DNA from: Perkinsela sp. CCAP 1560/9
Taxonomy: Eukaryota; Protista; Euglenozoa: Kinetoplastea
Reading direction: 5' to 3'
DNA length: 64,000 bases
NCBI GenBank assembly: GCA_965644495.1
Contig: CBFFSA010000010.1
Location: 372,001-436,000 of the forward strand
Shown: piece by piece, positions 11,213-37,965 of the stretch
Numbering within the stretch: position 1 is the first letter of the stretch
Layout of the letters: every line of letters starts with the position of its first letter
The notes under the pieces: model-generated
What the model was told of the DNA's origin: nothing
Seen by the model: only the letters and a program-made list of their open reading frames with translations
Databases searched by the model: none
Made by a program: the position numbers and the translations under genes

Positions 11213-11713
11213 ATGTCAATCTCATTACTAATCCTCAGAAGTGCTTCATTGGCGGATTTGACCAATACTCGCACGAATACACGTCTAGGGAAAGTGCGAG
11301 GAGCCATCCTCTCACATGACATGCAAATGGCAAAATTCATTGAGAATCTCGAGACGAAGTTACTGATTACGAGGAAGGAAACAGAAGCATGTTTGTGGGC
11401 GGGTGTCGCTTGTAATTCCAATGATGAAGTGCTCAATATTGATTGGTCGTCCAGGGCACTGAAGGGTAATCTCTCATGGGAGTATCTACCCCACACAACG
11501 TGTACTGTTCGTGTGGGAAATAATAAACTTAGCGGAACTCTTCCAGTTTCCGCATTTCCCCCGAAACTGAGTTCTTTAAACATACAATACAACCCCTTAT
11601 AAGGATCCTTCGATGCCCCTTCCCTCCCACAATTCGTTGAACAGCTTTTTTCATCTGGTACAAGATTTTCAGGTATGCTTGACTTGACCTCACTGCCTCC
11701 TCCATTGAGGTTG
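11213..11713 (+). pseudogene. LRR gene 5' part, interrupted by LINE
   Basis: RLGKVRGAILSHDMQM N-cap, ACLWAGVAC and LRRs. In-frame TAA at 11600-11602; the frame continues to DLTSLPPPLRL, where the LINE begins. Confidence 0.85.
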
Positions 11714-11737
11714 AAAGAAAGTTTCTGTACCTTGTTG
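11714..11737 (+). other. Spliced-leader exon relic (3' portion) at LINE 5' end
   Basis: aaagaaagtttctgtaccttgttg resembles the kinetoplastid SL exon 3' end (...ACAGTTTCTGTACTWTATTG). Not followed by GT. Confidence 0.8.
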
Positions 11738-11765
11738 TTTTCTTTTCCCTACCCTTTACAACGAC

Positions 11766-14700
11766 ATGTTTTGCTTACTACCAGGGAAGGGCACACACCA
11801 GGCGTCGCAGGACTCTCCTAAGAGACCACGCGACGTGTCTAACCAAAACAAAAACCTGTCCCTGAAAGGCACTCCCACAGACAGGGTTGCAAAATCTGCT
11901 ACCCGAACCGTCCAGGCTCTCATATCCCAAAAGAGCAATGAGTCCCTTACCAGCGACACAGGAGAAGCACCCCCAGCTCCATGCAAACATCCTTGTAAGG
12001 ACAAAAGCACCTGCGGACACCCCTGTTGCAAGAGGGGTGTAACGCGGCCACATATCCTGGTCACTCCTCACACAAACGAACTTCCCCCTCACCGCGTCCC
12101 CCCCACCACACAACAAACCGTTCCGGAATGCAAACACCGCTGCAAGGACAAAGCTCACTGTGAACACCCATGCTGCAAACGACACCTGGTACGCGTAGTA
12201 AAACCGGATACGTACAACAATAAGAGAAGTGACGCACCGGTGGATGCAAGAGAAGACGTAAAGGTGATCACGGCTGTGAGTGTAATGCCGGTACAACGTA
12301 GCACACCCTGTAAGCATGTCTGTAAAAACAAACAGACCTGCGGGCACCCATGTTGCAAACGTAATCTTACACCAACAACATACGAACTCACGAGCACTAC
12401 GGCGAGCGGTCAAGAATCCGGGCCCAAAGAAGCTCCAAGTACGCGACAAAGGGACGAAACGTCACCGCCATGCACCCGTGACCACGTAACACAGGATGTG
12501 AAAGTACCGAAATCAAGCAACCTACTTGGCATGGCAGCGCGAGCTGCAACACGATATCTGTTTTCAAGCCGCACTCAACCGTACGCTAACGGCACTCCCT
12601 CAACCCCGGCGGTAACCGTACGACCTCACAGCAGCACCGGACAGGAACGCTTGTCGTACACAATAGCACCCTGTCCAAAAGACGAACACGATTTACATGT
12701 ACCCCCACCCAAGGAGGTTGCTCCCCATCAAAAATCACCCACTGTTACCGTCGGTCGTGCCGTCGCATCAACTGCCTGCTCGCTTGCCAAATTCCTACTT
12801 TTCAAAGGCGTTCCATGTCAAACTCCGGACTCCCAAAGCCTCCCCAAACCTAAATCTCCAACACAACTTCAGGTCCACGCCTTAACTAGAGTATGCAAGC
12901 ATATCTGCAAGAGTAAAGATCAATGTAAGCACGTGTGTTGCAAGCAAGGCCTAGGCCCCGCCTCCGAACAAGCAGACCGTGTCGAGCCCTGTAAGCATAA
13001 ATGTAAGAACAAGGCAGGGTGCGGCCATCCTTGCTGCAAACGCACTGGCACACCGTTGACTTCGCTTGACACACCGATAAGCAAACTGGATGGGCAGGAT
13101 ACTCTACCCACCGGCCCATGTACCCTTCCCAAGAATCTCGTCACACCGTCCCTAAACACAACCACTACGACAGCTGACCGTGCCGTTGCCAGGGAACCAG
13201 CCATCCCGACTCCCAAAAACAAGGCACCGGAAAGTATCATTCTCTTGGACTCATCTTCCCCAGCACACCAACACAGTCCGCGGAATGAGAATGGCGATGA
13301 CGAAGTCCCATCCTGGGTTTTCCAACAAGCGCACAGCGTAGGTCGAATACAAAGCCCGCCGCTTGAACAAGGAAGCCTCTTACCCCCATCACAACTGGAC
13401 GCCCATTTACATTCGGATGAATCCGAGGGTCCCCAGATTCCCACACAAACTCCCGACAGCCCGTCACAGTATCTCCCGCCGCCCCAGGACCCCACGCATC
13501 CCGTAACCCATAACCGACACAAGCAACGTTTCCACTTTATCCAGTCCCGGTCAAAACCTGTCAAACTCCGCCTCGTCAACGACAACACATGGAGATATTT
13601 CCCGGATGTGCATGCAGCATGCGTAAGCCAACTTGTGCGTAGTCGTATCCCTTCCCCCCAGGGGGCTGAAGCCGCCCTGTCCAAAGCGCTCAATGGGAAA
13701 AGTGCAGCACACGACATCGTCGTAGAAACGTGTACCGTAGACGAACTTATGGAAAAGAGAGCGTGTGACTTTTTAGAAGTTAGTAGAGTAGACTCAACAA
13801 GTCACATTTCTCGCCACGCGAACTGGGTATCTCTTTTTCACGACAGCCGCCTGGAATTATACAACCACTACGCATCACCTAGCTCAATGGGTAAAGCGGT
13901 AAATAAGGTACTGAACGGGAGAGCGGTCCCTGGGTTATCGGCGTTTCGGATCGTTCTGCTCCTTCGCACCGACGACAAAGAAGAAGTACAGCCATCAAAG
14001 CCCCAAATGGTCCCAACACTTCCACCATACGAGATTATTTCGCGTGACCACGCCTCCTCCTTGAAGCGGACGCACCCATGCCAACATCGATGCATAAGTA
14101 AACTCAAATGCAGCCATCCATGCTGCAAAATCTATGGACCATCCCTCGATCAGGGAATCGAAGGAGACTCTGAGGGGAGCCCCAACGCAGGACAAGAGCA
14201 AGAACACCCCGAACTTAACCCCCCCACTTCCGCTTCCTCTCCGAGACCACTCGACGAGACGGAGTACCTTTTCCGCACGGCACGATACATCCAGGGGGGC
14301 AAGTTAAACATAAACTTGGCCGATGCGCACTGGCACGAGGTGGAACGTAGGGCCCTCCACAGATGCAACACCTTGCTCACTGTCTCTGGCGACGCACTCT
14401 CCGCCGTCCATAACGCAGAACTACTGAGTGCAATACTAGCGGTGTCGGCATATGAAGTGGCGCGAGACGTCGACTCCAGGAAGGGTTTCATTATCCGAAC
14501 GGCTCGAGGACACATAAAGGGGAAAGTCCGTCCATTAGAAAGCGAAAAAGTTGCCTTTTCCTTCTCTCGACATGTAAAACAACTACAAATGAAGCTGCGA
14601 TACACACACGGCAAGGCTCCCCGCATGGCGTTGAAACAAAAGATTAAGGAAACCAAAAAGGCGGAACGTATATACAGCGCAGAAGCCATGGCCCAAAAAC

Positions 14701-17216
14701 AGGAACTGGAAAGTCGCTGGGCACTTCAACAATTCAACCGCAATCCATGGACGGCTGCGAGTCAAACCTTGGACAAAAGGACAGAAGCAGAAAGTGTACC
14801 GGCCTATCCGACTTGCAATGTACAGAAAGTGGAAAGTGTGTTCACAACATTACTTACGGACCCCACTACAGTGCATCACTTACCACCCCACGACGTCCTC
14901 GGAAACCGTCCTCTGGCAGAAATGACCTGGGACGAACTGGCTTCAATCGACATTTCGAACGCTCTCACATCAAAGAAAAACAGCAGTGCTCCAGGCCAGG
15001 ACTCCATTACGTACCAGACTCTAAAGCGATGCCACAGCTCCCACACGCACATGGCAAACGTCTTCAACGCGCTAGTGCGCTTCAGCACATGTCCGACGTC
15101 ATGGAAAATATCCGTCACTCGCCTCATTTACAAAAAAGGGGAGCCTGACAACCCACAAAACTGGCGTCCCATCGGCCTGACTAGCGTACTAGGGAAACTC
15201 CTGCATTCCATCATCAGCCGGAAAATGACGAAATTCCTACTTGAAGCCTCTGTCATTGACCCCAAGATACAGAAAGGCTTTCTCCCCGCCATTAACGGTA
15301 CTCTCGAACATACGCAATCCCTCTCAGAGCTCCTACGCCACTACCGGAAGAACAAGTGGAACTACTGCATGGCCCAGCTAGACCTCAGTAACGCCTTTGG
15401 TTCAGTCCCCCGCAACATCATCTTTGAAGCACTGGAATGGGCGAGAATCTCCCCAAACATTATTAAATACGTCCAATGCTTATACACTGACGCAAGTACC
15501 CGCATTAAATGTTACGAAGGTCTGTCCAGCGCGATCCCAGCTAAACGAGGTGTCTTACAAGGTGACACTCTCTCTCCTACGCTCTTTCTGGTGATTATGG
15601 AGCTAGCCCTACGTTACATGGCAAAATCATTTCCCTCATTTGGATTGAACCTCCCTGGATTTCCAAAAAGCTTCCTAAAAGCGTACGCCGACGATCTCAC
15701 GGTCCTGACGAATAGTGAAAAAGAAATGCAACTGGCTGTTGAAACACTATCCACGGTACTGGGTTCGCTTGGCCTTTCCATCAACGTCAAAAAGTGCAGA
15801 GTCCAATGCATGGCGTCCAAGAAAAATGATGAACACCCCGGCTACATGACACGACGTCCTCAAATTTTCATCAAGAACGAAGCTATACCGCATATATGCG
15901 ACGAAGGAAGTACGTTTCTTGGCATGAATATTGCCCCCGGTTCTCAACAATCCCGAGCCCTTTTCACGAAAGTTAGGCCCTTATTGAAGCGATGGCTTCA
16001 TAACATTGACCAGTCGGCCCACGACCTCCCATCAAAAATTTGGATACATCAACACGCAATCATCTCTCGGCTACGCTTCACCTTTACTATACACCCATGT
16101 ATCACTCTAAACTTTATTTTACGCCTTCAGAAAATGTGTACTCACTCCCTGAAACGGTGGATCAATGCGGCTAGAACTACATGCAGCGAAGCAATCTACT
16201 CTCAGCGTGGATGGAACATCTGCAGCTTGTCCAGACTCTGGGAGGACTGTACAGCTGATCTTCTCTGTCAAATGAAGCGGTCCCGAGACCCGAACGTTAC
16301 CGCCGCACTGCAGGAAAGAATACGGGCTGAAGAACATAAGCGCAGGAAAGGCCAAATTCGACCAGCATGTGACATCACACACATACTGGACGATCGCGAT
16401 CTCGCAAAACGAACTCTTCTTGAGCTTAATGAGGACCGAATGATCAACGCACTACGCCGCAGGTCAACGTTCGCTATTCAGTGGTGGGATATAGCCTCCG
16501 AGGAAGAACAGGCGAAAGATTTCAGCGCCGCGATAAACGGATTACGTAGCACTTCCCTTAGCCGCTTCGCAACTTCTTTAATGGTACAAAACACTCTCCC
16601 TACTAGGACAATGCTGAGGACATGGGGAATTCACGGCACAGATACAGTACAATGCCGAATTTGTAAACAAGAACCGGAAACATTACGACACCTCTTATCC
16701 TCGTGCAAGGTATCACTAGAACAGGGACGTTACACATATCGCCACGATTGTGTACTCTCCACCTTTGCAAACGCGATACTCTCTTCCCCCCATACCGCAG
16801 AGGCACATTTTGATCTCCCACACCTACGTCAACTACCCGCATGGTGGTCCGACCTGGAAACACAGCTTCGCCCAGATGGAATCGTCAAACTCAACGACGG
16901 AACTGAATTTATCGTTGAGTTGACGATGCCCTGGGAGGAAAACGTACACGAAGCCCACTGCCGAAAAGTAGAAAAGTACATAAATATTCTACACCGACGA
17001 AAGATAAGGTACTCAGACTGCCACTTGATATGCTTTGAAGTTGGAGCTAGAGGTCTCCCTTCTACGACGCTGCGTCACATCAACCGTCTCTTTTTGGGTG
17101 ACAAGGCACTCTCAGATAAGTGCCGTGTCGAAGTCATCCGAACGGCGATCCGGAGCAGCTTTCAACTCTGGCTGAAAAGGGAATCCCCTTTATGGGACAA
17201 CCAAAGCTTTGGTTAG
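11766..17216 (+). CDS. Retrotransposon polyprotein, 1816 aa: 6 Cys/His motifs, RT, CCHC knuckle, restriction-like endonuclease
   Basis: APGQDSI, NWRPIGL, QKGF, LDLSNAFGSV, GVLQGDTLSP, AYADD; CRIC...HLLSSC, GRYTYRHDCVL, RPDG, ELTMPWE, KVEKY, EVGARG. Confidence 0.97.
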   Translation: MFCLLPGKGTHQASQDSPKRPRDVSNQNKNLSLKGTPTDRVAKSATRTVQALISQKSNESLTSDTGEAPPAPCKHPCKDKSTCGHPCCKRGVTRPHILVTPHTNELPPHRVPPTTQQTVPECKHRCKDKAHCEHPCCKRHLVRVVKPDTYNNKRSDAPVDAREDVKVITAVSVMPVQRSTPCKHVCKNKQTCGHPCCKRNLTPTTYELTSTTASGQESGPKEAPSTRQRDETSPPCTRDHVTQDVKVPKSSNLLGMAARAATRYLFSSRTQPYANGTPSTPAVTVRPHSSTGQERLSYTIAPCPKDEHDLHVPPPKEVAPHQKSPTVTVGRAVASTACSLAKFLLFKGVPCQTPDSQSLPKPKSPTQLQVHALTRVCKHICKSKDQCKHVCCKQGLGPASEQADRVEPCKHKCKNKAGCGHPCCKRTGTPLTSLDTPISKLDGQDTLPTGPCTLPKNLVTPSLNTTTTTADRAVAREPAIPTPKNKAPESIILLDSSSPAHQHSPRNENGDDEVPSWVFQQAHSVGRIQSPPLEQGSLLPPSQLDAHLHSDESEGPQIPTQTPDSPSQYLPPPQDPTHPVTHNRHKQRFHFIQSRSKPVKLRLVNDNTWRYFPDVHAACVSQLVRSRIPSPQGAEAALSKALNGKSAAHDIVVETCTVDELMEKRACDFLEVSRVDSTSHISRHANWVSLFHDSRLELYNHYASPSSMGKAVNKVLNGRAVPGLSAFRIVLLLRTDDKEEVQPSKPQMVPTLPPYEIISRDHASSLKRTHPCQHRCISKLKCSHPCCKIYGPSLDQGIEGDSEGSPNAGQEQEHPELNPPTSASSPRPLDETEYLFRTARYIQGGKLNINLADAHWHEVERRALHRCNTLLTVSGDALSAVHNAELLSAILAVSAYEVARDVDSRKGFIIRTARGHIKGKVRPLESEKVAFSFSRHVKQLQMKLRYTHGKAPRMALKQKIKETKKAERIYSAEAMAQKQELESRWALQQFNRNPWTAASQTLDKRTEAESVPAYPTCNVQKVESVFTTLLTDPTTVHHLPPHDVLGNRPLAEMTWDELASIDISNALTSKKNSSAPGQDSITYQTLKRCHSSHTHMANVFNALVRFSTCPTSWKISVTRLIYKKGEPDNPQNWRPIGLTSVLGKLLHSIISRKMTKFLLEASVIDPKIQKGFLPAINGTLEHTQSLSELLRHYRKNKWNYCMAQLDLSNAFGSVPRNIIFEALEWARISPNIIKYVQCLYTDASTRIKCYEGLSSAIPAKRGVLQGDTLSPTLFLVIMELALRYMAKSFPSFGLNLPGFPKSFLKAYADDLTVLTNSEKEMQLAVETLSTVLGSLGLSINVKKCRVQCMASKKNDEHPGYMTRRPQIFIKNEAIPHICDEGSTFLGMNIAPGSQQSRALFTKVRPLLKRWLHNIDQSAHDLPSKIWIHQHAIISRLRFTFTIHPCITLNFILRLQKMCTHSLKRWINAARTTCSEAIYSQRGWNICSLSRLWEDCTADLLCQMKRSRDPNVTAALQERIRAEEHKRRKGQIRPACDITHILDDRDLAKRTLLELNEDRMINALRRRSTFAIQWWDIASEEEQAKDFSAAINGLRSTSLSRFATSLMVQNTLPTRTMLRTWGIHGTDTVQCRICKQEPETLRHLLSSCKVSLEQGRYTYRHDCVLSTFANAILSSPHTAEAHFDLPHLRQLPAWWSDLETQLRPDGIVKLNDGTEFIVELTMPWEENVHEAHCRKVEKYINILHRRKIRYSDCHLICFEVGARGLPSTTLRHINRLFLGDKALSDKCRVEVIRTAIRSSFQLWLKRESPLWDNQSFG

Positions 17217-17301
17217 CAAATGGTCTAGCAGGCGACGTCATATGCGTACGTCCTGTTAGACTTTATTACTCTACAGGTAATGCCCTGTATAGATATAAAT
17301 A

Positions 17302-17583
17302 CTGCATGAAAATCTTTTTGTTGGGAGTATAAACTTAACCTGTCTCCCGAAAGAACTTACAGTTTTGCACTTGACCGGTAATAAGTTGAATGGTGAGTTG
17401 GTTCTGCGCTCCCTTCCGCCGTTTATGCGTACACCTTCCCTTGGGAACAACGCTTTTACGGGAAAAGTAGCATTTGACGCCTTACCAGCAACAATGAAAG
17501 ATTTGAATTTGAAAGGAAATATCTGCGATTTGGAAGTGCAGTCTTGGCCAATTCCAGAATGTGTTACAATTACTGTATTGTAG
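17302..17583 (+). pseudogene. LRR gene 3' part downstream of LINE
   Basis: Near-identical to 1232-1513. Confidence 0.9.
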
Positions 17584-17960
17584 CGCAGTACTTTAACTTT
17601 GTATGTTTTAGAAAAAAACAAATAAGGACAAAAATTCCACATGTACACATGTAGCTATATCAATTCTTACAGTGACGAGTTACAGTTAGATAATGTAGAG
17701 AAATTGTTTGCATGCAAATTCCTCGTCAAAAGGTTGGCTCCCAGTGTTGAACATGGTTAAGCAGTACAAAAGGGTTGGTTCAGTTTTCATCTAATGTAGG
17801 GGAGTCTGGTATTTTAGAAAACGAAAACAATATTTATAGAAACTGTGCAGCATGACGCCAAAACTGTACGGGAAAGCCTTTTTACCTTTCGATTTTGGAC
17901 TTTAAAAAATCGTATAAACATTCTGAAAACTCAAAGTATCGAGGATACGCTTTCTTCAAA

Positions 17961-19095
17961 CCGTCGAGCTGGAACACGGACACCCCCGCGTGTGAGTGGG
18001 AGGGTATTGCCTGTGAGCACGGCGAGCGTGTGACGCTAATGGATTGGTCCCCCTATGGGAGAATGGTGGGACAGGGCATGCTGGGGATTCCCATGACGGG
18101 TTCCCCAGCCTGCGATTATCTCCCACGAACGCTCGAGAACTGCTATTTGTTTGAAAATAGGCTTAGTGGAGAGGTGAAATTGGATAGCCTTCCGTCCGCG
18201 CTTTGCATTTTCCAATTAGGGGCAAATGCGTTTACAGGTGGCGTGGACTTATCTAACTTACCGCAAAATATGCAAGAGCTGTGGGTCCAGGAGAATGATT
18301 TGTCGGGAGAGGTAGATTTGAGTCAATTCCCAGCGAACTTCGTATCATTAGACCTTTCGGATAACGCATTTACAGGTAATGTTAATCTAAGTAACTTGCC
18401 CTCTGTCACTTGGCTAATATGGGACGCGCTTCCACCCCTTCATCCCTTCCCGACTCACTCCCCTGGAGTGAGTGTGCTTCCCTCTCTCGGCTTTCCCTTC
18501 TCTCGCAGTTACCTTTCCGAAGAGGCCATGCGTCACGGTGGCCTCCCTTGAGGACCACTAGGCGTGTCCTCCGCCGACGAGACTCCCGGCTCTCCGCACC
18601 TGGGGGTCGCCAAGCTCTCCGCACCTCGGCTCTGTCGCAGCTCTCTGCACCCGGATTGCCCCCGAAACTGTAATATGGGGATTACGCATCCGGCTCTCTG
18701 CACCTGCACATGACAACCGAGCTCTCTGCACCTGGGACCCCAGCTCTCTGCACCCGCACACCTCCGGCGAGGGCGAACCCTCACTTGATCCACCCGTCGT
18801 ATGCGGGCACGGACTTTGTGAGCATAATCTCTGCACTATAAGTGCATGAACGAACAACTCAAACAATCAATTTTTCGGAACGCTAGATTTGCGGCATCAA
18901 CCCGCTTCGTTGGAGGTGCTGGAGTGCGAGAATAACCTTTTCAGCGGAAAAGTATTTTTCGATAAGCTCCCACCACAAATGACACGACTGTTATTCGTGG
19001 ATAATAATGAACTTGAAGGTGAAATTGACCGTTCCATACTTCCTAAGTTATTGGACGACCTCATTACGCAAGGTACAAAAGTAATTTTCAAATAA
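17961..19095 (+). pseudogene. 5'-deleted, SINE-interrupted copy of LRR gene 4106-5032
   Basis: Near-identical to 4334-5032 apart from the insertion at 18421-18858. Confidence 0.92.
18421..18858 (+). mobile_element. SINE-A, 5'-truncated copy
   Basis: Absent from the paralog (tggctaatat-ta-tcaaac) and homologous to 62610-63050 (minus). Ends ataatctctgcactataagtgcatgaacgaacaac; 2 bp of target lost. Confidence 0.92.
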
Positions 19096-19405
19096 TAATA
19101 TTAAGCTAAGTTGCCTTCCACACAAACGAAAAAGTGTACTCAATTATTACTGTGATGTCCCCGTTATACTATACGACCCCCCTTTATACGTCGATTACAC
19201 GTTTTTTAAATGATACCAAAAGCACTTATAATTGTCAATCTCCACATACATACTATTACCCCTATCCTGACTTATTCGAGTGATGGCTCCCGTTTCGCGA
19301 GGTGCTATACCTAAAATTGTGCATAGATGTCTAATGTAGCCACATAGTCTGAAAAGGTTTCGTGTTGTTCGCGGTAGGCTCATTTTGGAGATGTTTAATC
19401 ACTTA

Positions 19406-20950: not shown

Positions 20951-21644
20951 TACGCGTAACCTCTGGATCTGCAAGCCACGAGATTTCTCCCTGTTTCTGG
21001 ACTAGGTTTATTCCGCAGTAAACAAAGTTGCACGTTGCGGTCTCTAATGTCATATATTTCAACTGAACATTCAAGATACAACAATCCCTAATGTATAACA
21101 ATCCCTAATGATTCTTTTTCCCATTTTCCTAGCAATAAATCTTTTCCACGTTGCGTTCCTAAAATCAGATGTTGAAAAGGATCAATGTGTTAGGTAGGAA
21201 TGGGTGCCTGTTAAGGAGGTTCAGGGCCTCTTTGGTAAAAGCAGTGTTTTGAAGCCCCGCGTGAGAGGTCTTTATTCCACCTAAAGGGGGGGCTCGTTTA
21301 TTGTTAAAAATAAATTATTTTCGGTTTTTTCGTGTGACTTTTGAATTTTCTTGTTCCCTATGATCATGTTTTATAGCGTTCATGATCCCCGTTATCTGTC
21401 CCCCATTATCTTCCTTTATTTATCTCCTTTCCGTTCAGTTATCTTACAATATAAATAAAATCCATGATAAAGAAAATGATGCGCTTAACCTTTCATTCAT
21501 TAGCGGGTCTTGCTGCTGAACTTTCTCATAGTTTACTTTTACGTTGCTTGCAGAGGTGCCGATAGTAGGCCTTAAGTGCGAAGCCAAGCTTTCCAAGTAG
21601 TCCTGGTTATCAATTGTTGATGTCAGTTCGAATAAACTTACCCG

Positions 21645-21810
21645 ACTTTTGTTTGGCAAGCTTCCGGAGACAATGAAGGAAATATTTTTTACGAATAACA
21701 AGGAGCTTGTCGGCGACTTTGATGTCGCAGAATGGAATAAATTGAATTGGAATTCTCGACATAGTTGTACGCAGATATCACTCGTATGTAAGTACGAGCA
21801 AGAAGCATGA
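21645..21810 (+). pseudogene. LRR C-terminal fragment
   Basis: LFGKLPETMKEIFFTNNKELVGDFD resembles FFDKLPPQMTRLFFVDNNELEGEIN of 4106-5032. Confidence 0.55.
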
Positions 21811-21964: not shown

Positions 21965-22285
21965 TATCTATCTATTTGTCATACACTTAAAGTGAAGAGA
22001 TCGTTTATAAATAGATCCAGGAAAACAAATGTCCAGAACACGCGCACAGAAAGCGTGTTATCAATTTAACTTTAGGCGACCTCAGCGAACCGTGGTTCAC
22101 TGTTCCAAGTCTTTAAGTCGCGTTTTTTGAATATGATGAAGCTGCCACGCTGGGCACTTCTCATCATTTCCTTCCAACACCCAAAAACAAGATGGTTGTC
22201 TCCCATAAAAAGAGATTTGAGCGGTCGAATGGAGCTAGCGAGTTTCCCCCTAGCACCCACCTCGGAAATCAAGACAAACGTGCAT
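21965..22285 (-). mobile_element. 5'-truncated RLE-LINE 3' end
   Basis: FVLISEVGARGKLASSIRPLKSLFMGD...RGSFIIFKKRD. 3' UTR has the aacacgc..gcgtgtt hairpin and terminal atctcttca-ctttaag-tgtatga. Confidence 0.85.
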
Positions 22286-22559
22286 AGGTGTTGCAGTTTC
22301 CGTGTGTGATATAATCTGCACTCCAGATTCTGGAGTATTTCGCAACTTTGCAGTCGTGGGCATATTCTGTTAGCAATTCCTCTTCGGCAATTGCCTGACT
22401 CAGTTACTCCTGCTTGGAAATCACCAGTTCCGGTTCCATGGAGCCGTCTACCGCTTCTAATTGCTCCGTAGCATTTGTCTTCGGCGTTTCTTCTTCGGGG
22501 ATCCGATGCGTTGTGAGCCGGAGTCCGGTTGCAGTCCGTTTTTTTATTCATCTCCCGAC

Positions 22560-25526: not shown

Positions 25527-25920
25527 AAAAAAAATCCAAATCATTCCGGATTGCTCCGGATGGTCACTGGCAAGCCAGACTCTTCACAGACAGATTTGGA
25601 AGTTCCGAGGCCGACGTCCTCTACCAGATTCCGCTTGTCCAAGGCGGCACCAACGTGCTGTTACCAGCACGCTGCGTCGACGAACTGTACGTCAACACGG
25701 CTTACTCCCAAGAGGTGTAAGCCGGGTAAGGGAGCTGGTTCCCTGAGGGGAGGGTCCGGGACGGTCCTCCGAGTACTGGGCCTAGTCGGTTATCAGCCCA
25801 GCCTCTTAGAGTGAATATTGCCGGGAATATTGCGATGAGCGGGTTTGAACTCGCCGTCTGAGCACCATGTGCATCAAGCTTTGAATTCTTGCCACTCCGC
25901 CTTCTCCGCCACCTCCGCCT
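25527..25920 (-). mobile_element. SINE-B with tRNA-like head
   Basis: Minus strand has an A-box-like ggcggagtggcaag and a B-box-like gagttcaaacc, a body shared with 22803-23028 and 57625-57985, and an oligo-T end. Confidence 0.7.
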
Positions 25921-25929
25921 TTGGAGGCG

Positions 25930-26090
25930 CACCCCTAATTTGTGACAAGAGGGACAGTTCCTCTCCTAGCGCCATCCGGAAACGGGCATGAACATAGTGA
26001 CAATATGTCCGTTTCCGAGAGAGAAAAGATGAACTAGGAGAAAAAGTACAACAAGGTACAGGAACTGTGTCTTTGAGAAACTGTATCAAT
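25930..26090 (-). mobile_element. SINE-A head with SL relic (26049-26074) and retained splice acceptor
   Basis: attgatacagtttctc-aaagacacagttcctgtaccttgttg-tactttttctcctAG-ttcatcttttctctctcggaaacggacat... Confidence 0.85.
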
Positions 26091-29149: not shown

Positions 29150-29500
29150 TAACTCCAGTAAGAGCTTCCCGAAGAGTTTGCAGCATGGCTCCGGCCTCAT
29201 ATATTGCGGCATTCTGGCGCGGAGGGTGATACTGGTTAATAGAACGCAGCCAAGGCGCACCAGATGGTCCCAGTTTTGCTTTCTTTTATAGATTTTTATA
29301 TATTTTTCTGACGGTGCTTCGATCAAGGTGATACTCTTGAGCAACCTGTCGTTCTGTTTTTCCTGCATCCAGAGACGCGCAGATGTTACGCTTCTGCTCT
29401 ATTGTAAGCTCTACACGAGACTTGCGCTCACGCTCGCTTTCCACATGCTTCTCCGTGAGAAGCTGAGCCGTCGGAAGGATGCTGGTAATATTCTTTGGGG
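29150..29500 (-). pseudogene. pogo/Tigger transposase N-terminal HTH fragment
   Basis: RKSRVELTIEQKRNICASLDAGKTERQVAQEYHLDRSTVRKIYKN is a CENP-B N-terminal/psq HTH pattern. Confidence 0.75.
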
Positions 29501-30654
29501 CAGTAACAACAACGAAAGGGTCTCGAGGCATTAGAGCACCCCTAACCTGATTCGCGCTAAAAATGAGCAATGGTAATGGCTGACGCATTTGGTAGTAGTA
29601 GAGTTTTAGTATACAGTGCAGAGATAGTATTTCTCCGTAAACTAGTACGCTACTTATCCTCTCGTGTCCCAGAGGTTTCGTCACAAAAGAGGATAAGTAG
29701 CGTACTAGAATATCTAAGGGGGGTAACGGTATTAAGGTAATTATAATTAAGGTACCAGAAATTAAGGTATTAATTACCTGTATGTGTCACTCATTTTTAC
29801 GAAAATCTATCGCAATAATTAATTTCTCTTTTAGTCGCTTCGTGAAAGGCGGTGGTCATTTTCAACTTAGAACCTATCAGCGTGCATCCAAAAATCGTGC
29901 AGGGTAGGCATCCTTAAAACGCTAGCTAACCAGGGAAATCGCTACCTTACACGTATTTGGGCTAAACATGGCCAAACATTGCTTACTTAAATGCACAAGT
30001 GCGCGAGTTTTAGGTGTAGTATTTACTCTTCTAATTGCGAATTATGATTCTGCGCATGAACTTCAAATATTCTAACTGACCTGGTTGTAGGTACTTTCAA
30101 CTGAATTTTGTTCAAGTTTCGAAAGATATCGACATCGGAAATATGAGCTCTAAACAATAATTAAGGTACCAAGCATTAAGGTACCGGACATTAAAGTAAT
30201 ATTTATGTGGCAAAAAAGTTACCTTAATTTAAGTTATTCTTAATTAATGTTTTCACGGTAATGTCAATATTTCAGTAAGATCTCTTTCGGTTTTTATTGG
30301 CGCAATGTAAGTAAAGCAAAAATCCAGAGAGGAAGTTCCCAGATTGCGCCGACCCCGGTCCAAGGCTGGTACCACCGCGACGTGAGCTAGCTGGGTAAGG
30401 GTTGGGGGGACAAACAAAGAATCAAGACCGTTAAAAGAGCAATATATTTTTCTTTTTCGAGAAAAATAAATACTTGCCGTTTTTTTGAGGTTCGGGTTTG
30501 GAGACGTAATATTACAAAAAAAAAATTAAAAAACCTATAAAACAATCCTTCACTTTGACCATTCATTTTCCTTCTTTACCATTTTTCACACCACCTTACC
30601 TTCCCTTTCTACCCCTTTCCACCTCTCTCCCTACACCCCCCCCTCCTCAACCCC

Positions 30655-31332
30655 ATGCCACCTTTCCTCTTTTCTCTCCACCCTTTCCCCCCCTCCCCCG
30701 TTTCCCCCTCCACCCTCTACACCCTCTCCCGCCGTTTCAAATCCCGCCGCCAGCCCGCGAAAATCTACCGTTACTCCTACATGCCCGACCCGCGCAAATT
30801 CGCCCCCATTGAGAGCGTCTCCCCGGAGGAGATGCACCCCCTCCCCCTACGTCCCCCCCATGAGGAAGTCCCGGACATCCAAGCCTTCCTCTCCCGCCTC
30901 TCCACCGCCCGCGGCCTGCGCTGCGTGGAGTACGCCTCCCTGTTCCGGGACTGGGAGCACCTGATGACGGTGACCCGGACGGAGCTCAAGGCCCAGGGGG
31001 TCCCCCCGAACGTCATCCAGCACCTGCTGAACTGGCAGGGGAGCTACCGCCGGGGGTACGTCCCCCGGGGCGTGGACGGCACGGCGCGGGAGGAGGCCCG
31101 GGCGCCGTTCGTGCGGCTCAACGGGCGCGCGTGCCGCACGATGCTCCCGGAGGTCCCGCGGAACTACCGCCCGCACCAGCAGGGGGTGGGGACGCGGCCG
31201 GAGTTCGACGCCGCGGTGGGGGGGGTGATGCCGGAGTGGGCGGCGGGGGAGGAGAGGAGGCTGGGGGGAAGGCAGGAGGGGGGAGGGGTAGGGGGAGGGG
31301 TAGGGGTAGGGGTAGGGGTAGGGCAGGGGTGA
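30655..31332 (+). CDS. Probable mitoribosomal small-subunit protein mS41/Fyv4-like (IGR/SAM-like domain)
   Basis: PPHEEVPDIQAFLSRL...YASLFRDWEHLMTVTRTELKAQGVPPNVIQHLLNWQGSYRRG fits the IGR-family pattern. Presequence-like N-terminus and strong GC3 bias. Confidence 0.7.
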   Translation: MPPFLFSLHPFPPSPVSPSTLYTLSRRFKSRRQPAKIYRYSYMPDPRKFAPIESVSPEEMHPLPLRPPHEEVPDIQAFLSRLSTARGLRCVEYASLFRDWEHLMTVTRTELKAQGVPPNVIQHLLNWQGSYRRGYVPRGVDGTAREEARAPFVRLNGRACRTMLPEVPRNYRPHQQGVGTRPEFDAAVGGVMPEWAAGEERRLGGRQEGGGVGGGVGVGVGVGQG

Positions 31333-31784
31333 AAGGCGGGAGTTGAAAGAGAGAGAAGGGGGTGGGGGTGATGCTGGAGGGGCGGTGGGGGAGGAGAGGA
31401 GGCGGGGGGGGGAAGAGGGGGAGGGTGGGGGAGGAGGGGGGGTAGATGTAGGAGGGTAAAAGGATAAAAGGGGAAAGGTGGGGTGGAATACGCCTTGTGA
31501 GGTGGTTTCCCTTATGAGTTTGGGGGAAAACTCCTGTGGATTGGGAGAAAAAAAACGGGGAGGGAAGAGCGCCAGGGGGTAAAACGGGAAGGTGGGAAAT
31601 GGAGAACGGGGTGAATTCTCTGTTTGCGCTAAGTACAATGTACAAGCATGTGCACGAGCAAGCTTGTGCTTGCTTGTAGCTTGTGCATGAAACGGATGGC
31701 ATGATTCTTGGATGAAAGAAAGAGTAAGGACGGTCCGTAGCAGGCAGGCCAGCGAGGTACACTTAGACTTTATTTCGCTTCTTT

Positions 31785-32228
31785 ATGTCGCTCTATCCTC
31801 CGGGTTGTATTTTAGCTTGTCTCAGCAGCGATACAACCTTACCTCACCCCGCCAAAGTGAATGGTTCCGTTCTTCCCCAGAAATATGATTTTAGCAATCA
31901 TTTCGAATCCAGAAGAGACATGGACAACGAACACTACTGCGCGTGAATGGTTTGCAGTAAAGTGCAATAGCAACCAACAATGATTTCCATTGAACTAGTC
32001 CCGCAAGGTTTTTTTAACGTCCACGGGCATGATAAATATTGTGGAACATTTGCATGGATGTACATGCCGGACATCACACTATCGTTCTCTTCAAAAAAAC
32101 AAAGGGGGATCACCGGAGTGTTACCTATTGCACATCTCCCTGGATTGCTGCAAAGATTTGACGTTTTCAATTGTAATATGTTGGGCCCCATTGATTTGAC
32201 AGTGCTGCCGCCCCAATTATGGTTTCTA
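31785..32228 (+). pseudogene. LRR gene 5' part (frameshifted), interrupted by LINE copy 2
   Basis: Paralog of 38455-39117: PAKVNGSVLPQKY, NPEETWTTNTTA, DKYCGTFAW, IDLTVLPPQLWFL. Confidence 0.85.
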
Positions 32229-32245
32229 TAAAGATATTATGGCTT

Positions 32246-32275
32246 CTATAAAGATACAGTTTCTGTACCTTGTTG
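32246..32275 (+). other. Spliced-leader exon relic at LINE 5' end
   Basis: ctataaagatacagtttctgtaccttgttg is the closest match in the window to the kinetoplastid SL exon. Followed by ctttg, not GT. Confidence 0.88.
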
Positions 32276-35200
32276 CTTTGTACTAAACTTATCTTTCGGA
32301 GCATGATCTCTAATGTCACACCCCCAGCTCCCCACGCGCACGACGGCCTCCCTCGAGGACCTGTCAGCGCGAAGCGACACCCCCAGAACTTTCACTTCGT
32401 CCGAAGTCGTGCGGTGCCAGTGAAGATCCGCCCCTCTGATGGCTTTTCATGGTCCTATTTTCCCGACACGCACGCCGCAGCCATCACCCTTACCGAACGA
32501 GAGTTTTTCTCAAGCACGCACACAGCAGAAGCTTCCCTCGGAAAAACCCTGAAGTCGGGAAGCAAAAGGAGCGATGGTCCGATAGTACAAACGTGTACCA
32601 CTCAAGATGTCATCGAGAACGATGCATGCGAGTACGTTGAGTACCATGAAATTGGAAACCTTAGTCGCACATTTCATCACACGAGCTGGAGCTCTGCTTA
32701 TACAGACCCCGACATGCAGCTTGACACAGAATACTCCTCCTCGAACGCGCTTGGCAAAGCCGTCACAAAGAAATTGCGCGGCGGTGACATGCCAGGCTTA
32801 CGACGATTCCGCATATCACACGTGACCCGTAAGGCCCAACCCATTGAACAACTCCAACGTTGCTCGGAGGTCACATACGACGCGCCATATAGAATCCGTG
32901 ATGCTCCCGTCAAGGTGTCAAAACTACCGCCCACTAAACCAAGTGTCCCTTGTGCCCATAAATGCCGGGACAAAGCAGCATGCCTTCACGTATGTTGCAA
33001 AGTGAAACCCGAAAGGTCTGTGCATCCTAGCGTCCCTCCTCCCTCTTCGGAAGCCGTGGCTATAGACAGTTCACTAGCTCCCGGCAGAAGGCCCTGTAAG
33101 CATACGTGCCGCGACAAGACAAATTGTTTGCACCAGTGCTGCAAAATAGGAGTCCTCATTACGGGTGCTACTGAAAATCCTCGACCAGAACGGCACCTCG
33201 GGGAGTCATCACTAACACGGTCACATAGTCCACATCGATAGAAACCGATCCGCAAGTCTCGACAGAGGCCATACCGAGCGAAGAGGCCCAGTATGAGGAT
33301 CTGCCAACCGGTCATCCGCCGTCGTCCGCCATAATATCAGCAAACACGGCCAACTATCACCCGTGTCGGCACATACAATAAGTATGTATGCAGCAATAAA
33401 ACTCAGTGCAAACACCAATGTTGCAAGACAGGGGTCATGATCGTCGAAGAAAACGGTCAGAATCGAATATGGTCACTCAGGAATTTGTTTACGAGGACAT
33501 CTCCTGCCGATGCTAGCATAATATCACCACAGAATCACCCTAGCTGGCCATCCGAGACAGGAAACTTGAGCGGTACGCAGGCTGTAAACCACGAACTCTC
33601 TCATACACGCACTTCCCCGGAACCTCATGTTAGTAGAGATGGCAATATCCCCCCTGAATCAGTCCCTCGCCGTAATTGCGCACATAAATGTAAAGACAAA
33701 ACCAAATGTAAGCATTCATGTTGTCAAAAAGGAGTTCTCCTCAAAGCTGGCGAAATCGCATACTCTGCCATAAGCTGGACGGCGAAAAATATTCTATTCC
33801 CTGCGCTTGGTGATGCCGAACGCGCTGCAGTTTCTTCACAAGCTTCGGAACCGCCCGCCCCAGTCGTGACACCCCGCCTACCAGTTCGCACCAACTCCCT
33901 GCCCCGCACGAGTCCACTGTCCAGCCCTCTACGACATTTCCCACCAGCCCACGAGACGCAACCGGATTCCTCACCTTCTGTACCACGTATGGAATCCGTA
34001 GCAGAACCCGCGCCTTTGCCTTTGCCTTTACCTTTACCTCCCCCACCGGAAGTAAATCGCAGACGCACGACACTGCAGAGGATCCCTCGATCCCAGCACG
34101 CCCCAGCCCCAACCATTCATCCCATTCCTGACCTGCAGAATCTTCTCGAAACATTTGACACAATAACGGGAGGACGAGTTCTGGTACGTTTTACAGAGGA
34201 ACAGTGGGGCAATAGTATTGCGAAAATTGAGGAACGTTGCAACTTGTACGTGCACCCAGCGCGAAACGATGAGGATGCCCTGTCTCAAGCTAAAACATTA
34301 TCCGCGATCCTCGCCGTAACCGTCTTTGAAGCCGCACGGGAGAGCGACCCGACACACCGCTTTCTCCTGCGAACCAGAGCTGGCAGAGCCAGAAGAAACT
34401 CACGGCCCTTGGCCATCGAACGTACCACGAAGAGGCTTCGCACACATGTTCGTCAACTCAAACGTGCACTTACCTTCATGAAGGGGGCCGCGAGAAACAA
34501 GCAGCGAGGAGAAATTAAGGAAGCAGAGAAAGCGTTGAAGTTGTACGTGGAGGAAGCCAATCTACAGAAGAGGGAAATCGATCGACGATGGGCATTAACT
34601 CGGTTCCAGAGAAACCCGTGGACAGCTGCGGGCGAATGCCTAGATCGCACTGACCCAATCCAGGGACCCGAGACGTCTTACCCTACAGTACCTCTTCAAG
34701 AGGTTGAGAACTTCGCGGCATCATTGTCAAAACCTGAAGAGAATCACAGCATACCCCCCGCCGAGTTCTTCGGACCACGGCCTGACATCGACATGCCATG
34801 GTCGGATATTGACGCCGAAATGATAGCATCTGCTGTATCTTCCAAGCGCTCGGGCGCTGCTCCTGGATCAGACACTGTATCAAACGCTCTACTCAAGCGT
34901 TGTAGCCCTATCTTTGTCCACATAGCTCAAGTATTCAATGATATCCTTAAATTCGGGGTTTGCCCCCCCACCTGGAAATCTGCCGTAACTCGCCTCATAC
35001 ACAAAGGAGGTCCTACATCAACTATGGAGAATTGGCGGCCGATAAGCTTAACTAGTTGCATAAGGAAACTTTTCCATTCAATCCTGAGCCACCGAATCCT
35101 TCAACATTCCTTGGATTCTCATGCGCTCGATACATCAGTACAAAAAGGATTTCTACCACACATGAATGGGACCGTCGAGCATACACAAGTCTTATGCGAG

Positions 35201-35910
35201 CTCCTTGAACACCAACGACGTCACAAACGGCAATACTTACTGGCACAGTTCGATATCAAGAACGCTTTCGGATCTATCCCCCACGCAGTACTGTTACAAT
35301 CCCTAAAATGGGCCCGTGTCTCCCCAATTCTAATTAACTATATCAGCGCGCAGTATAAAGGAGCATCTATTCAAATCAAGTGTGCTGAAGGCCTTACGAA
35401 GTCGATCGAGATCGGCCGTGGAGTATTACAAGGAGATACACTGTCGCCGATCTTATTCAACTTGGCAATGGAATTGGTTCTTCGCTTCATCCGTTCAAGT
35501 TGCCCACAGTACGGAATCACTTGGGATGGAAAGGAAACCTTTCTGAAGGCCTTTGCTGACGACCTCAGTATACTCACGAACACACCAAAGGAAATGCAAA
35601 TTGCCACGAACGTACTGGTCAAAGTTCTAGGCGACATCGGAATGAAATTGAACGCAAAGAAATGTTGGATTCAACACATGGCAATGACTCAAGACTCAGG
35701 CTACATGACAAGACGACCGCAGATAATGATTGACGCAACACCTATTCCTCAAATATGCGATAATGGTAGCACATTCCTGGGTATGACTCTCGCACCTGGT
35801 GCCCAGCATGGTAAAATTCTGTTCCTAAAGCTACGCAATCGACTCCGTACCTGGTTACGCAACATATCTTCCAGCGCCCACGACCTACCCGCCCGACTCT
35901 GGATATACAA

Positions 35911-36813
35911 ATTTTCTTTTTTAGGCTCTTCGTTAAACGCGGTGGTTGCTTTCAACTTAGAAGTCACTCATGCTGCGCGCTTCGCGTTGAAAACTACCGC
36001 CGCGTTTAACGAAGAGCCTAAAAAAGAAAATTTAACCTGGAAAACGGAAAGATTATAGCCAAAAATAGCCGAATTTCGGGTACAAATGGGGTCATTTTCG
36101 CATATTTTTGCTCTCAGAGCACTAAATCCGACATTTGCGCGTGGGAAATCACTCGCAGGCATGAATGAAAGCCTACCGAACGTATTCGGTAAAGAATACG
36201 ACTCCAACCATACCATTCTTTCGACACAAAAATGCCCCTTTAGGTCCGAAAAATACTTTTTCACCTTTTTTAGTCAAAAATGTGTCATTTTGAGGGGCGC
36301 ACCACGGTTCGAAGAAGTGATACCTTGCGAAAACAACTGCGTAGAAAGCTAGTGTAGGTCCCAAACTATCAAAATACAATAGGGGAAACGATTTTGGAAA
36401 AATATTTTTTTTGTCATTTTTTTCGCCAAGTTGAATTTTTTTTCAAAAAAATTTTTCCGAAAAAATCCGAACTTGGCGGACCCGTCATGCGGATACGCGG
36501 GGGGGTCACCCCCGGGTAGGGGGGTGGAAAATACGCGCCAAGACCCCGGCTACCCTTTCTGCGGTTTTTTTTCGAAAACTAATTTTTTCGAAAAAATTTG
36601 CTCGACCATGCCCCCCCCCCCTGGACCCCCCCTCTGGACCCCCCCCATGGACCCCCCATTTTTTTCAAATTTTTTTTTCAGTTTTGGTCCACCGGAGCCC
36701 CCTTTTATATTTTTTTCTTCTATTATATTACTGTGTTCCTCTTTATATTTTCACTGTTTTTGTTCACTTTTTTTTCAATAATCGAGTGTAGAGCGGTAGT
36801 TTTACAACCACCG
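35911..36813. mobile_element. Non-coding insertion with terminal fold-back inside LINE copy 2
   Basis: RT frame WIY|..|NNGIISRLR is split, with caa repeated at both junctions. ~125 bp palindrome at the left end. Confidence 0.75.
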
Positions 36814-37902
36814 CAATAATGGTATTATCTCCCGCCTTCGCTACTCTTTTTTTGTCAATTCATGTCTGACTTTTAACCACGTTCTGCGCCTCCAGCGATG
36901 CGCTACAAATGAAATCAGAAAATGGTTAAATGTAGCAAAATCCGCGACAAGCGAACTGTTGTACACCGAGCATGGTTGGAACCTCGTTCAACTCACAATA
37001 ACGTACTACGACTTCTCGACAGTGAATATGAGAGGCATCTTTCGGAAGCCGTGCAAAGGCGCACTTTAGTTGCGGGAAGATGGTTCCGCGTAGCGACGGA
37101 AGCAGACCTCGCGAGGGACTTCGCTGCCGCCCTATGTAATCTCAAAAGCGAATCGCTATCACGATTTACGGCTTCCGTACTCACAGGAACGCCACTCCCC
37201 ACTAGAGTGTCTCTCCGCAAATGGGGCGTATCGACACACACAAGCGACAAGTGTCCCATCTGCGATACTGAAACGCGAACCGCGCGACATATTCTCTCCG
37301 GGTGTAGAAAAGCACTCGAGCAAGGACGATATACTCTGCGACATAACATGGTGCTACAAGCCCTCGCAAACTCTGTGCAGAAATTCCAAGGGACCAGTCT
37401 AGTCACTTTGACCTCCCTCACTTTCGCTCTACCCCTCCGTGGCTCACGGAACTCGACACCGAGCTGCGACCGGATGGGTGGGTGAAAATGTCCAACGGGG
37501 AGCAGTATATTATAGAATTGACGTGCCCCCTGGGAGGAAAATTTTGTCTACGCACACGAACGAAAAACTGCCTAGTACACAAATCTCTACCATTCCCGCA
37601 AGCTCACAAACCCGAGCACTTTCCTACTCGTTTTCGAAGTCGGAGCGAGAGGAAAAATAAGCAGTGCTGGTCGAACTCTGAACTCTCTATTTATGGGTAA
37701 TGATGAGCTGGTGGCTGAGTGCCGGCGCAATATGACCGTGAAGGCTCTGAGAGGGAGCTTCATAGTATATCAAAACCGCAATGACCAAAATTGGATGGAG
37801 GAGAACGTTCTTGGTGACGCTGGATAGAAACAGGTGACTAAAACGCGTTTTGTGCGCGTTTTCACCACATAAATCTCTGCAGGATTACCTGTATGATACA
37901 AT

Positions 37903-37965
37903 ATATTTCATCACAATAAGTTCAGTGGTATACTGGATCTCACATCACTCCCTGCAAATTCACAG
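37903..37965 (+). pseudogene. LRR continuation downstream of LINE copy 2
   Basis: IFHHNKFSGILDLTSLPA aligns with NIRANQFNGALDLTSLPV, the next residues in the paralog. Confidence 0.8.

What the first reader, a model, noticed from the sequence alone, without database searches (positions are those of the whole stretch)
11700..37965. Three independent insertions hit the LxxLxLxxN codons of LRR genes
LINE1 lies between LRL| and |LHEN, LINE2 between LWFL| and |IFHHN, and SINE-A between VTWLI| and |SNN. All are in sense orientation, in three different LRR paralogs, with the 3' junction roughly 6-15 nt upstream of the conserved Asn codon of a 72-nt repeat. RLE-type LINEs are often target-specific, so this may be a family biased to LRR coding repeats whose nicks could promote module loss or exchange. 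The bias is not exclusive, because other copies lie outside LRR genes.
Basis: partly seen in the sequence, partly recalled or inferred. Interest (0 to 1): 0.78.

Follow-up and report, generated by a model that had tools for sequence, protein, structure and literature searches.

The report
Retrotransposons aiming at leucine-rich-repeat codons
In a kinetoplastid-type genome, copies of one group of jumping genes repeatedly sit at the same spot, and in the same direction, of the 69-base unit that encodes leucine-rich protein repeats, which suggests that their cutting enzyme likely reads the pattern of a protein's conserved codons rather than one fixed DNA site.

Summary
The three insertions are real, sense-oriented and end 6-13 nt before the Asn codon of an LRR unit. 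Corrections: the unit is 69 nt, not 72, and LINE1's flanks come from different modules (75 nt of target missing). The phase prediction held out of sample: 2 of 5 new LINE1 3' flanks in contigs of public runs read as LRR cores with the junction 9-10 nt before Asn (null about 0.7-1.9% per junction; P 4e-4 to 3e-3; P=0.037 if all five were LRR hits). A fourth in-window case, a 34-nt LINE1-type 3' end at 6374, fits too. The bias is loose: 9 of 12 further junctions do not match, and gene-level enrichment in the window is not significant (4 of 8, P=0.18). The elements are single-ORF RT-RLE LINEs plus a partner SINE, capped by a spliced leader, with unusual zinc fingers and a predicted homing-endonuclease-like DNA-binding module. 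Best reading: relaxed target preference for a codon-defined motif. Module exchange in working genes is not shown. New variant of a known kind; small sample.

The parts
11714..17301 (+). LINE1, full-length RT-RLE non-LTR retrotransposon, ORF 11715-17216 open over 1833 codons; no target-site duplication; 3' junction 9 nt before Asn codon 17311
11714..11737 (+). spliced-leader-type sequence at the 5' end of LINE1 (2 nt short against the LINE2 copy)
   Evidence: likeness to the Perkinsela SL primer
11982..14129 (+). six CxHxCxxKxxCxHxCC zinc-finger-like repeats (aa 90, 139, 199, 394, 426, 789)
13540..13965 (+). conserved N-terminal domain, predicted two beta-beta-alpha-alpha-beta modules resembling DNA-binding domains of homing endonucleases I-HmuI and I-TevI
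   Evidence: best Z 7.0, modest
14880..17213 (+). RT, CCHC knuckle, RHD, PD..E and K motifs of the restriction-like endonuclease
17268..17301 (+). 3'-terminal hairpin plus short A/T tail, motif shared with LINE2, SINE-A, F, D1, E
11186..11713 (+). LRR gene 1, 5' part, ends at codon 3 of a module; stop at 11600-11602 (sense codon in the contigs)
17302..17583 (+). LRR gene 1, 3' part, starts at codon 6 of the next module
1152..1513 (+). empty paralog of LRR gene 1; 1157-1231 are the 75 nt absent at the LINE1 site
18421..18858 (+). SINE-A1, 5'-truncated; 2 nt of target lost; 3' junction 6 nt before Asn codon 18865
17958..19095 (+). LRR gene 2, interrupted by SINE-A1 (its start is also missing against the paralog)
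4094..5032 (+). intact paralog of LRR gene 2 (empty site of SINE-A1 at 4793-4796)
32230..37905 (+). LINE2, full-length but broken by stops, frameshifts and a 0.9-kb insert near 35920-36810; 49% identical to LINE1 in RT; SL at 32250-32275 behind a 20-nt tandem duplication of the 5' junction; 3' junction 9-13 nt before Asn codon 37915
31800..37970 (+). LRR gene 3 remnant around LINE2 (5' part to 32229, 3' part 37906-37970, last modules missing)
6374..6407 (+).
62615..63250 (-). SINE-A2, full-length with SL, in the ORF of another retroelement: non-LRR control
3010..3940 (-). D1 and D2, two LINE 3' fragments of the same group, D1 ending inside D2: non-LRR controls
21965..22320 (-). E, LINE 3' fragment whose end matches the SINE-A end: non-LRR control

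Best explanation
A group of RT-RLE LINEs and a partner SINE lands repeatedly, in sense, about 9 nt before the Asn codon of 69-nt LRR units, likely because the element's protein reads a sparse DNA pattern made by the conserved codons (nTn nnn nnn AAY nnn TTY nnn GGN) and nicks the antisense strand there. Shown: position, direction, empty sites, domain content, SL caps, loss of target bases (2 nt, 75 nt), absence of duplications. Inferred from R2 biology: target-primed reverse transcription from that nick; a loosely placed second-strand step upstream that removes target bases. Inferred from the sequence: the RNA is trans-spliced and copied to its cap, since all 4 full-length 5' ends start at the same SL position and diverge right after it. 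Predicted only: the homing-endonuclease-like module and/or the zinc fingers read the motif. The preference is relaxed (many copies lie elsewhere) and looks strongest in the LINE1-type subgroup. Dozens of redundant LRR genes with several units each would be a safe, renewable target in a compact genome.
For: New LINE1 3' flanks (table 7, 6 rows = 5 distinct flanks, translated by hand): M-D-T-N-D-F-N-G-T-I with Asn 9 nt after the junction (X1) and I-A-Q-N-Q-F-Q-G-E-L with Asn 10 nt after (X2). Only 0.66% of non-element window positions (1.0% AT-matched) have such a core 6-14 nt downstream in sense; P(2 or more of 5)=4e-4; with a generous 1.9% null P=3e-3, and 3 of 12 further junctions P=1.3e-3. 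If all five flanks were LRR hits of any phase or strand, P=0.037. F: 28 of 34 identical to the LINE1 end, E=3e-4; stem pair A-U in LINE1, G-U in LINE2, G-C in F (sequence); 1 of 49 LRR units has such a stem; its flank ranks 8th of 1592 segments against a profile of database LRR C-termini, E=0.003, the top 14 all LRR. Targets are diverged paralogs (7-13 of 27 nt alike among four window targets, with the LINE2 slice one base off frame) while the LINE1 ends match over 30 nt, so the events are independent. LINE1 is young: 94-99% identical proteins on 6 ENA contigs. RLE motifs intact; best solved relatives are R2 proteins. N-terminal module: top matches I-HmuI Z 7.0, a DNA-binding sCTP Z 6.2, I-TevI Z 4.8.
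Against: Small sample: 6 LRR-phase junctions, 3 of them the discovery set. 9 of 12 further junctions do not match (3 of 5; 2 of 2 readable SINE-A flanks, a third too short; D1, D2, E, SINE-A2). Gene-level enrichment in the window is not significant (4 of 8 against a 29% share, P=0.18). The laid flanks account for only part of LINE1 depth and hid 153 loose ends, so the census is partial. Flanks are 30 letters, so LRR hits in other phases could be missed; one reads LRR-like in antisense and one in another phase by eye. SINE-A1 is 3 nt off and F lacks the Phe and Gly codons. All runs come from one study. The fold matches are below Z 8. No biochemistry.
Confidence: 0.68

Rival explanations
1. Weak A/T-rich or tail-annealing preference plus survival in dispensable genes: the element nicks or primes at A/T-rich spots, and the Asn region is the A/T-richest part of the unit.
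For: A/T content peaks at -5 to +10 around the Asn codon (0.70 against 0.43 in the poorest phase); the non-matching LINE1 flanks are A/T-rich; the SINE-A tail resembles its target, and SINE-A1 is 3 nt off the LINE phase.
Against: AT matching raises the null only to about 1%; the junctions lie upstream of the A/T peak; the LINE1 and X1 flanks begin with mixed sequence unlike the tail; an A/T rule does not predict one strand.
Confidence: 0.14
2. Spliced-leader mimicry: the family descends from SL-gene-targeting elements, or uses its own SL-derived cDNA end to pair upstream, and the LxxLxL codons resemble the SL.
For: The SL fits the LRR profile in one register, -28 to -3 from Asn (p=0.007 against shuffles); the LINE2 upstream flank matches 10 of 15; the LINE1 5' junction stops next to an SL-like 7-mer; pairing of cDNA with upstream target is the favoured second-strand route in R2 (PMC13580325 passage).
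Against: Found by eye and tested after the fact among 13 sequence tests; LINE1 and SINE-A1 targets score 6 and 4 of 15, at or below the unit average; SINE-A1 and F carry no SL; no copy was seen in an SL gene.
Confidence: 0.1
3. No targeting: random insertion, with selection leaving copies in redundant LRR genes, other elements and intergenic DNA; the phase is a small-number accident.
For: Gene-level share not above chance; most other junctions lie in elements or between genes.
Against: Does not predict phase or strand; the most cautious out-of-sample test gives P=0.037, and 0.005 with F; 6 of 6 recognised LRR cases are sense.
Confidence: 0.07
4. One old insertion copied along with LRR genes by duplication or conversion.
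For: The window holds a segmental duplication of LRR genes.
Against: Three different elements; empty paralogs exist; flanks diverged while element ends are identical.
Confidence: 0.01

Closest known systems
R2-group RLE non-LTR retrotransposons (R2, R4, NeSL, Utopia, HERO)
   Same: Single ORF, RT, CCHC knuckle, restriction-like endonuclease; precise 3' and variable 5' junctions; multicopy target; relaxed specificity is known for some Utopia (PMC4640811 passages).
   Different: Listed targets are rRNA, snRNA, tRNA, SL exons, transposons, microsatellites and telomeres, all conserved DNA; here the targets share only spaced codon positions of a protein repeat. No C2H2 or Myb domain found; other N-terminal modules instead.
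CRE/SLACS/CZAR of trypanosomatids
   Same: Kinetoplastid RLE elements linked to SL sequence (PMC12278014 passages).
   Different: They insert in SL RNA genes with duplications and a poly(A) tail; here the SL is only at the 5' end, there is no duplication, and the 3' end is a hairpin with a short tail.
ingi/RIME and L1Tc/NARTc in RHS genes
   Same: Kinetoplastid LINE and SINE pair with relative specificity for a protein-coding multigene family (review PMC6967402 passages; primary paper not held).
   Different: APE endonuclease, Pr77 end and one conserved site per gene family; here RLE and a site that recurs in every repeat unit of diverged genes.
Tetrahymena REP in LRR genes
   Same: Non-LTR element favouring LRR genes, proposed to help module shuffling (PMC6564038 passages).
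   Different: REP sits in introns of 90-bp exon arrays and has two ORFs; here insertions break coding sequence at a fixed codon of intronless genes.
Homing endonucleases I-HmuI and I-TevI
   Same: Targets in coding sequence of conserved residues, tolerance at wobble positions shown for I-AniI (PMC3943268 passages); predicted fold likeness of the N-terminal module.
   Different: They travel with self-splicing elements that spare the host gene; these LINEs break it. Likeness is a modest structural match only.

Membership tests
RLE-bearing non-LTR retrotransposon (R2 group in the wide sense) | single ORF with RT followed by CCHC knuckle and PD..(D/E)..K endonuclease | tested here: met
RLE-bearing non-LTR retrotransposon (R2 group in the wide sense) | no APE endonuclease or RNase H | tested here: met
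   Pfam finds only RVT_1 and zf-RVT in the 1833-aa ORF
RLE-bearing non-LTR retrotransposon (R2 group in the wide sense) | clade placement by RT phylogeny | not testable with these tools
   no named reference set held; R2 chains score above L1 chains (E 8e-31 against 6e-18)
R2 clade | insertion at the 28S rDNA site | tested here: not met
   no rRNA in the window; none of the flanks looked like rDNA by eye
R2 clade | N-terminal C2H2 fingers and Myb domain | tested here: inconclusive
   no Pfam hit; other finger type and module seen; only 191 of about 1050 N-terminal residues were folded
CRE/SLACS/CZAR | insertion inside SL RNA genes with SL sequence on both sides and a duplication | tested here: not met
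   SL only at 5' ends, 3' flanks are LRR or other, bases lost not duplicated
NeSL/Utopia | SL1 or U2 snRNA target | tested here: not met
   flanks; no Rfam hit in the window
ingi/L1Tc (RHS-targeting) | APE plus RNase H domains | tested here: not met
LINE-dependent SINE | non-coding short element sharing the 3' end of a LINE | tested here: met
   SINE-A end matches E and D1 and shares the hairpin motif of LINE2; mobilisation by these LINEs is inferred
Target-specific retrotransposon (strict) | nearly all copies at one site | tested here: not met
   LINE1-type ends 4 of 7 at the LRR phase; SINE-A, D and E ends 1 of 7
Target-preferring retrotransposon (relaxed) | site use far above chance | tested here: met
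   small sample
Homing-endonuclease-type DNA-binding module (NUMOD1/IENR1; IENR1 label recalled) | fold match | tested here: inconclusive
   Z 7.0, rmsd 4.6, 63 aligned to I-HmuI 108-174; Foldseek E 1.3; many weak viral homing-endonuclease and NUMOD1 rows; no Pfam hit
Homing-endonuclease-type DNA-binding module (NUMOD1/IENR1; IENR1 label recalled) | sequence-specific DNA binding | not testable with these tools
   needs a binding assay

The most novel reading that the evidence does not exclude
A kinetoplastid lineage of RLE LINEs replaced the usual R2 targeting domains with homing-endonuclease-type DNA-binding modules and so targets a protein motif: it reads the conserved codons of the LRR unit across hundreds of diverged sites, and its phased nicks, when repaired without a full insertion, delete or swap whole 69-nt modules and drive LRR gene diversification.
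Probability: 0.2. Interest if true: 0.88.

Novelty: new variant of a known kind. Interest (0 to 1): 0.68.

Why it matters
Known target-specific RLE retrotransposons choose DNA that is conserved base by base. Here the preferred sites share only spaced codon positions, so the element would be tracking a protein repeat. That adds a class of target, bears on how RLE specificity is rewired (of use to people who engineer R2 proteins), and offers a testable source of phased breaks in a large, unstudied LRR family of a Perkinsela-like symbiont (organism inferred from SL and LRR likeness). The intact young LINE1 ORF makes the claim directly testable in vitro.

Tried and rejected
No RNA holder listed. 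Metagenome scan gave 4 distant loci of 57 candidates; viral and prokaryote collections gave nothing; no earlier findings. My first reading (weak A/T bias 65%, phase targeting 20%) was overturned. Idea that the element's 3' end mimics the LRR unit: rejected for LINE1, LINE2, SINE-A1 and F (p 0.15-0.92; two trimmed tests of D1 and E reached 0.02 and 0.05 in unrelated registers). A supposed extra LINE end near 3930 is coding sequence of D1. Covariation count on the seven 3' ends was uninformative because the alignment shifted four rows (no measure beat the shuffles). Search for LRR-SL fusion proteins: no candidate; no SL peptide in 27 database LRR proteins; P0179 and P0055 extensions could not be classified. 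Module-number differences between intact paralogs: none. Atlas: no usable hit for two regions. Zinc finger: no PDB or Pfam match. Literature searches found no report of an RLE element at a fixed phase of coding LRRs; Repbase and most subscription journals are not covered, and the supplementary note of PMC5601477 on retrotransposons and SL fragments could not be read and may describe these elements.
Full report
Setting. No whole genome is held. The window carries about 16 LRR genes or remnants, all on the + strand, covering 11,886 nt of 41,347 non-element bases. A kinetoplastid spliced-leader-type motif occurs 4 times (0.01 expected). It resembles but differs from the Perkinsela SL primer (PMC5601477 passage), and the LRR proteins have the layout of a Perkinsela LRR protein in that paper's supplement. 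A Perkinsela-like kinetoplastid is therefore inferred, not shown.

Observation. The three insertions are as described in place and direction. Their 3' junctions lie 9 nt (LINE1), 9-13 nt (LINE2, blurred by the tail) and 6 nt (SINE-A1) before the Asn codon. The unit is 23 codons: 27 of 28 short spacings are 69 nt, one is 66, none 72. SINE-A1 has an empty paralog in the window and an empty joint with 2 letters between in 4 of 4 runs. For LINE1 I predicted from the paralog that 75 nt were missing; contigs of 2 of 4 runs join 11713 to 17302 with exactly 75 letters between, and the letters before 17302 match the paralog. Whether these contigs are the empty allele or the paralog is not settled. So LRL and LHEN are not neighbours: one module plus two codons is absent. 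The simplest reading is loss during insertion; earlier loss in that gene copy is not excluded.

The elements. LINE1 is an open 1833-codon frame with RT, CCHC, RHD, PD..E and K motifs and no APE or RNase H; R2 proteins are its best solved relatives. LINE2 is a broken relative, 49% identical in RT. Relatives at 41-58% exist without names, and 94-99% identical proteins lie on six ENA contigs, so LINE1 is young. LINE1, LINE2, SINE-A and fragments D1, E and F end in a related hairpin and short tail; D2's end is degenerate. All 4 full-length 5' ends in the window (LINE1, LINE2, SINE-A2, SINE-B1) begin at the same SL position and diverge right after it, none with GT, which points to trans-spliced RNA copied to its cap (inference). 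SL fragments beside retrotransposons are already mentioned for Perkinsela (table of coordinates). The N-terminus has six CxHxCxxKxxCxHxCC repeats; the same motif occurs after the Sec63 domain of DEAD-Sec63 helicases (11 of 37 hits scanned carry Sec63; the name Mer3/HFM1 is recalled). A conserved 140-residue domain folds as two modules (pLDDT 73) whose best matches are DNA-binding parts of I-HmuI (Z 7.0) and I-TevI (Z 4.8) and a DNA-binding sCTP (Z 6.2); this is a lead, below the Z 8 level.

Test of the bias. The three cases were chosen after the fact, so I looked for new junctions. Laying contigs on the LINE1 3' end gave 6 loose-end rows, 5 distinct flanks. Two translate as LRR cores in sense, M-D-T-N-D-F-N-G-T-I and I-A-Q-N-Q-F-Q-G-E-L, with Asn 9 and 10 nt after the junction. 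Three do not: a poly(A)-led flank, an A/T-rich flank, and the flank of a diverged copy. Only 549 of 82,694 non-element window positions (0.66%) have such a core 6-14 nt downstream; P(2 or more of 5)=4e-4; AT matching gives about 1%. The window is LRR-rich, so this null is probably generous for the genome. Taking all five as LRR hits of any phase and strand, P=0.037. In the window a motif scan found F, a 34-nt LINE1-type end (28 of 34, E=3e-4) with a compensated stem, inside an LRR remnant whose tail scores E=0.003 against a profile built from 25 database LRR C-termini; its junction is about 6-10 nt before Asn. F keeps the frame and seems to replace about 12 codons. Against the bias: SINE-A2, D1, D2 and E lie outside LRR genes; 2 of 2 readable SINE-A flanks do not match, a third is too short, and 153 rows were hidden. 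In all 3 of 12 further junctions match (P=1.3e-3 at a 1.9% null). By subgroup: LINE1-type ends 4 of 7, LINE2 1 of 1, SINE-A, D and E ends 1 of 7. Five ends of other families (three SINE-B, two CRE-like) are all outside LRR cores. Gene-level enrichment is not significant (4 of 8, P=0.18); the signal is phase and strand. The contigs laid explain only part of LINE1 depth, and all runs are of one study.

Mechanism. The six LRR-phase targets share, read by eye, T in the middle of the first codon and AAY at +10; five also have TTY at +16 and GG at +22; little else (7-13 of 27 nt alike among the four window targets). I infer a nick on the antisense strand about 9 nt before Asn, target-primed reverse transcription, and a loosely placed second-strand step that loses bases upstream (2 nt, 75 nt, perhaps about 35 at F), as is plausible for R2-like elements with variable 5' ends. 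Reading fixed codon positions while tolerating wobble is known for homing endonucleases, which fits the predicted module, but binding is untested. Rivals: A/T or tail annealing (0.14), SL mimicry (0.10; the SL fits the LRR profile at -28 to -3, p=0.007 post hoc, but used targets are not more SL-like than other units), selection alone (0.07), shared ancestry (0.01).

Module loss or exchange. Shown once, with a gene-breaking insertion. Intact paralog pairs show no module-size indel. The diversifying role stays a hypothesis.

Comparison. It works like a relaxed target-specific RLE element. It fails the defining targets of R2, CRE/SLACS and NeSL/Utopia and the domain set of ingi/L1Tc; clade placement could not be tested. 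The nearest parallels are ingi/L1Tc in RHS genes and Tetrahymena REP in LRR introns. Searches found no RLE element at a fixed phase of coding LRRs; Repbase is not covered.

What I saw of papers: passages only for PMC5601477 (plus a supplement search and file 6 whole; its supplementary note PDF unreadable), PMC7859406, PMC4640811, PMC12278014, PMC6564038, PMC6967402, PMC13580325 and PMC3943268; listings only for the rest; Bringaud 2002 not held.

Verdict. New variant of a known kind, confidence 0.68, interest 0.68.

Noticed in passing
window 11714-11737, 32230-32275, 26049-26090(-), 63224-63262(-): All four full-length retroelements start with a roughly 26-nt SL; three have an abortive SL piece or a 20-nt tandem duplication at the 5' junction. 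The SL ends in TG, an acceptor used often in Perkinsela, so the DNA copy might re-accept a fresh SL each cycle (untested).
   Followed up: partly
window 11982-14129; P0089, P0091, P0114, P0152, P0057, P0072, P0082: The CxHxCxxKxxCxHxCC finger has no Pfam or PDB match but recurs in DEAD-Sec63 helicases, RNase T-type exonucleases, other RT proteins and zinc-knuckle proteins.
   Followed up: partly
window 22798-23028(+), 25525-26075(-), 57626-57990(-): Second SINE family (SINE-B) with a different 3' hairpin and T-rich tail; the copy at 22798 has an 11-nt target duplication, unlike the LINE1 group; the copy at 57626 has an inverted part.
   Followed up: partly
window 23030-24400(-), 61000-64000(-), 41400-41833(+), 6058-6094(+): Degenerate elements of a second RT family, CRE-like by recalled motifs; two share a 37-nt 3' end.
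   Followed up: no
window 108-5200 and 10106-19267: Segmental duplication (92-97% identical pieces) that supplies the empty versions of both first insertion sites; includes a third SINE-like element at 89-455(-) and 10064-10435(-).
   Followed up: partly
window 11600-11602: Stop codon in LRR gene 1 upstream of LINE1; contigs of all 4 runs show a sense codon there: decay after insertion, paralog reads, or an assembly error.
   Followed up: no
window 41000-41170 and 21600-21750: LRR remnants; the first lacks about 12 codons with the downstream break near the Asn phase and a short tandem repeat, without an element (single degenerate case).
   Followed up: no
window 3010-3940, 21965-22320, 62615-63250: All four group members outside LRR genes lie on the - strand, all four inside on the + strand; two of the former are in sense within other retroelement ORFs.
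   Followed up: no
P0150, P0180: RNase H-like ORF with the same finger ends in the SL-encoded peptide, i.e. a 5' junction of an SL-capped element in a non-LRR target.
   Followed up: partly
window 55567-56289, 52288-52770(-), 29286-29786(-), 43755-44090, 35909-36810: DNA-transposon remnants: weak IS1595/Merlin-type transposase, HTH and CENP-B-type fragments, and a 0.9-kb insert with a palindromic end inside LINE2.
   Followed up: no
window 24600-25190(-), 42327-42776(-): Fragments with tyrosine-recombinase-like motifs (recalled; no Pfam hit), possibly TATE/DIRS-type.
   Followed up: no
window 30559-31460: Mitoribosomal mS41-type gene (Pfam E 4e-11) of very high G+C, flanked by C-rich and G-rich low-complexity tracts, unlike the rest of the window.
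   Followed up: no
window 37965-37975: LRR gene 3 breaks off two to three codons into the module after the LINE2 site; its last modules are absent compared with paralog 38389-39117.
   Followed up: no
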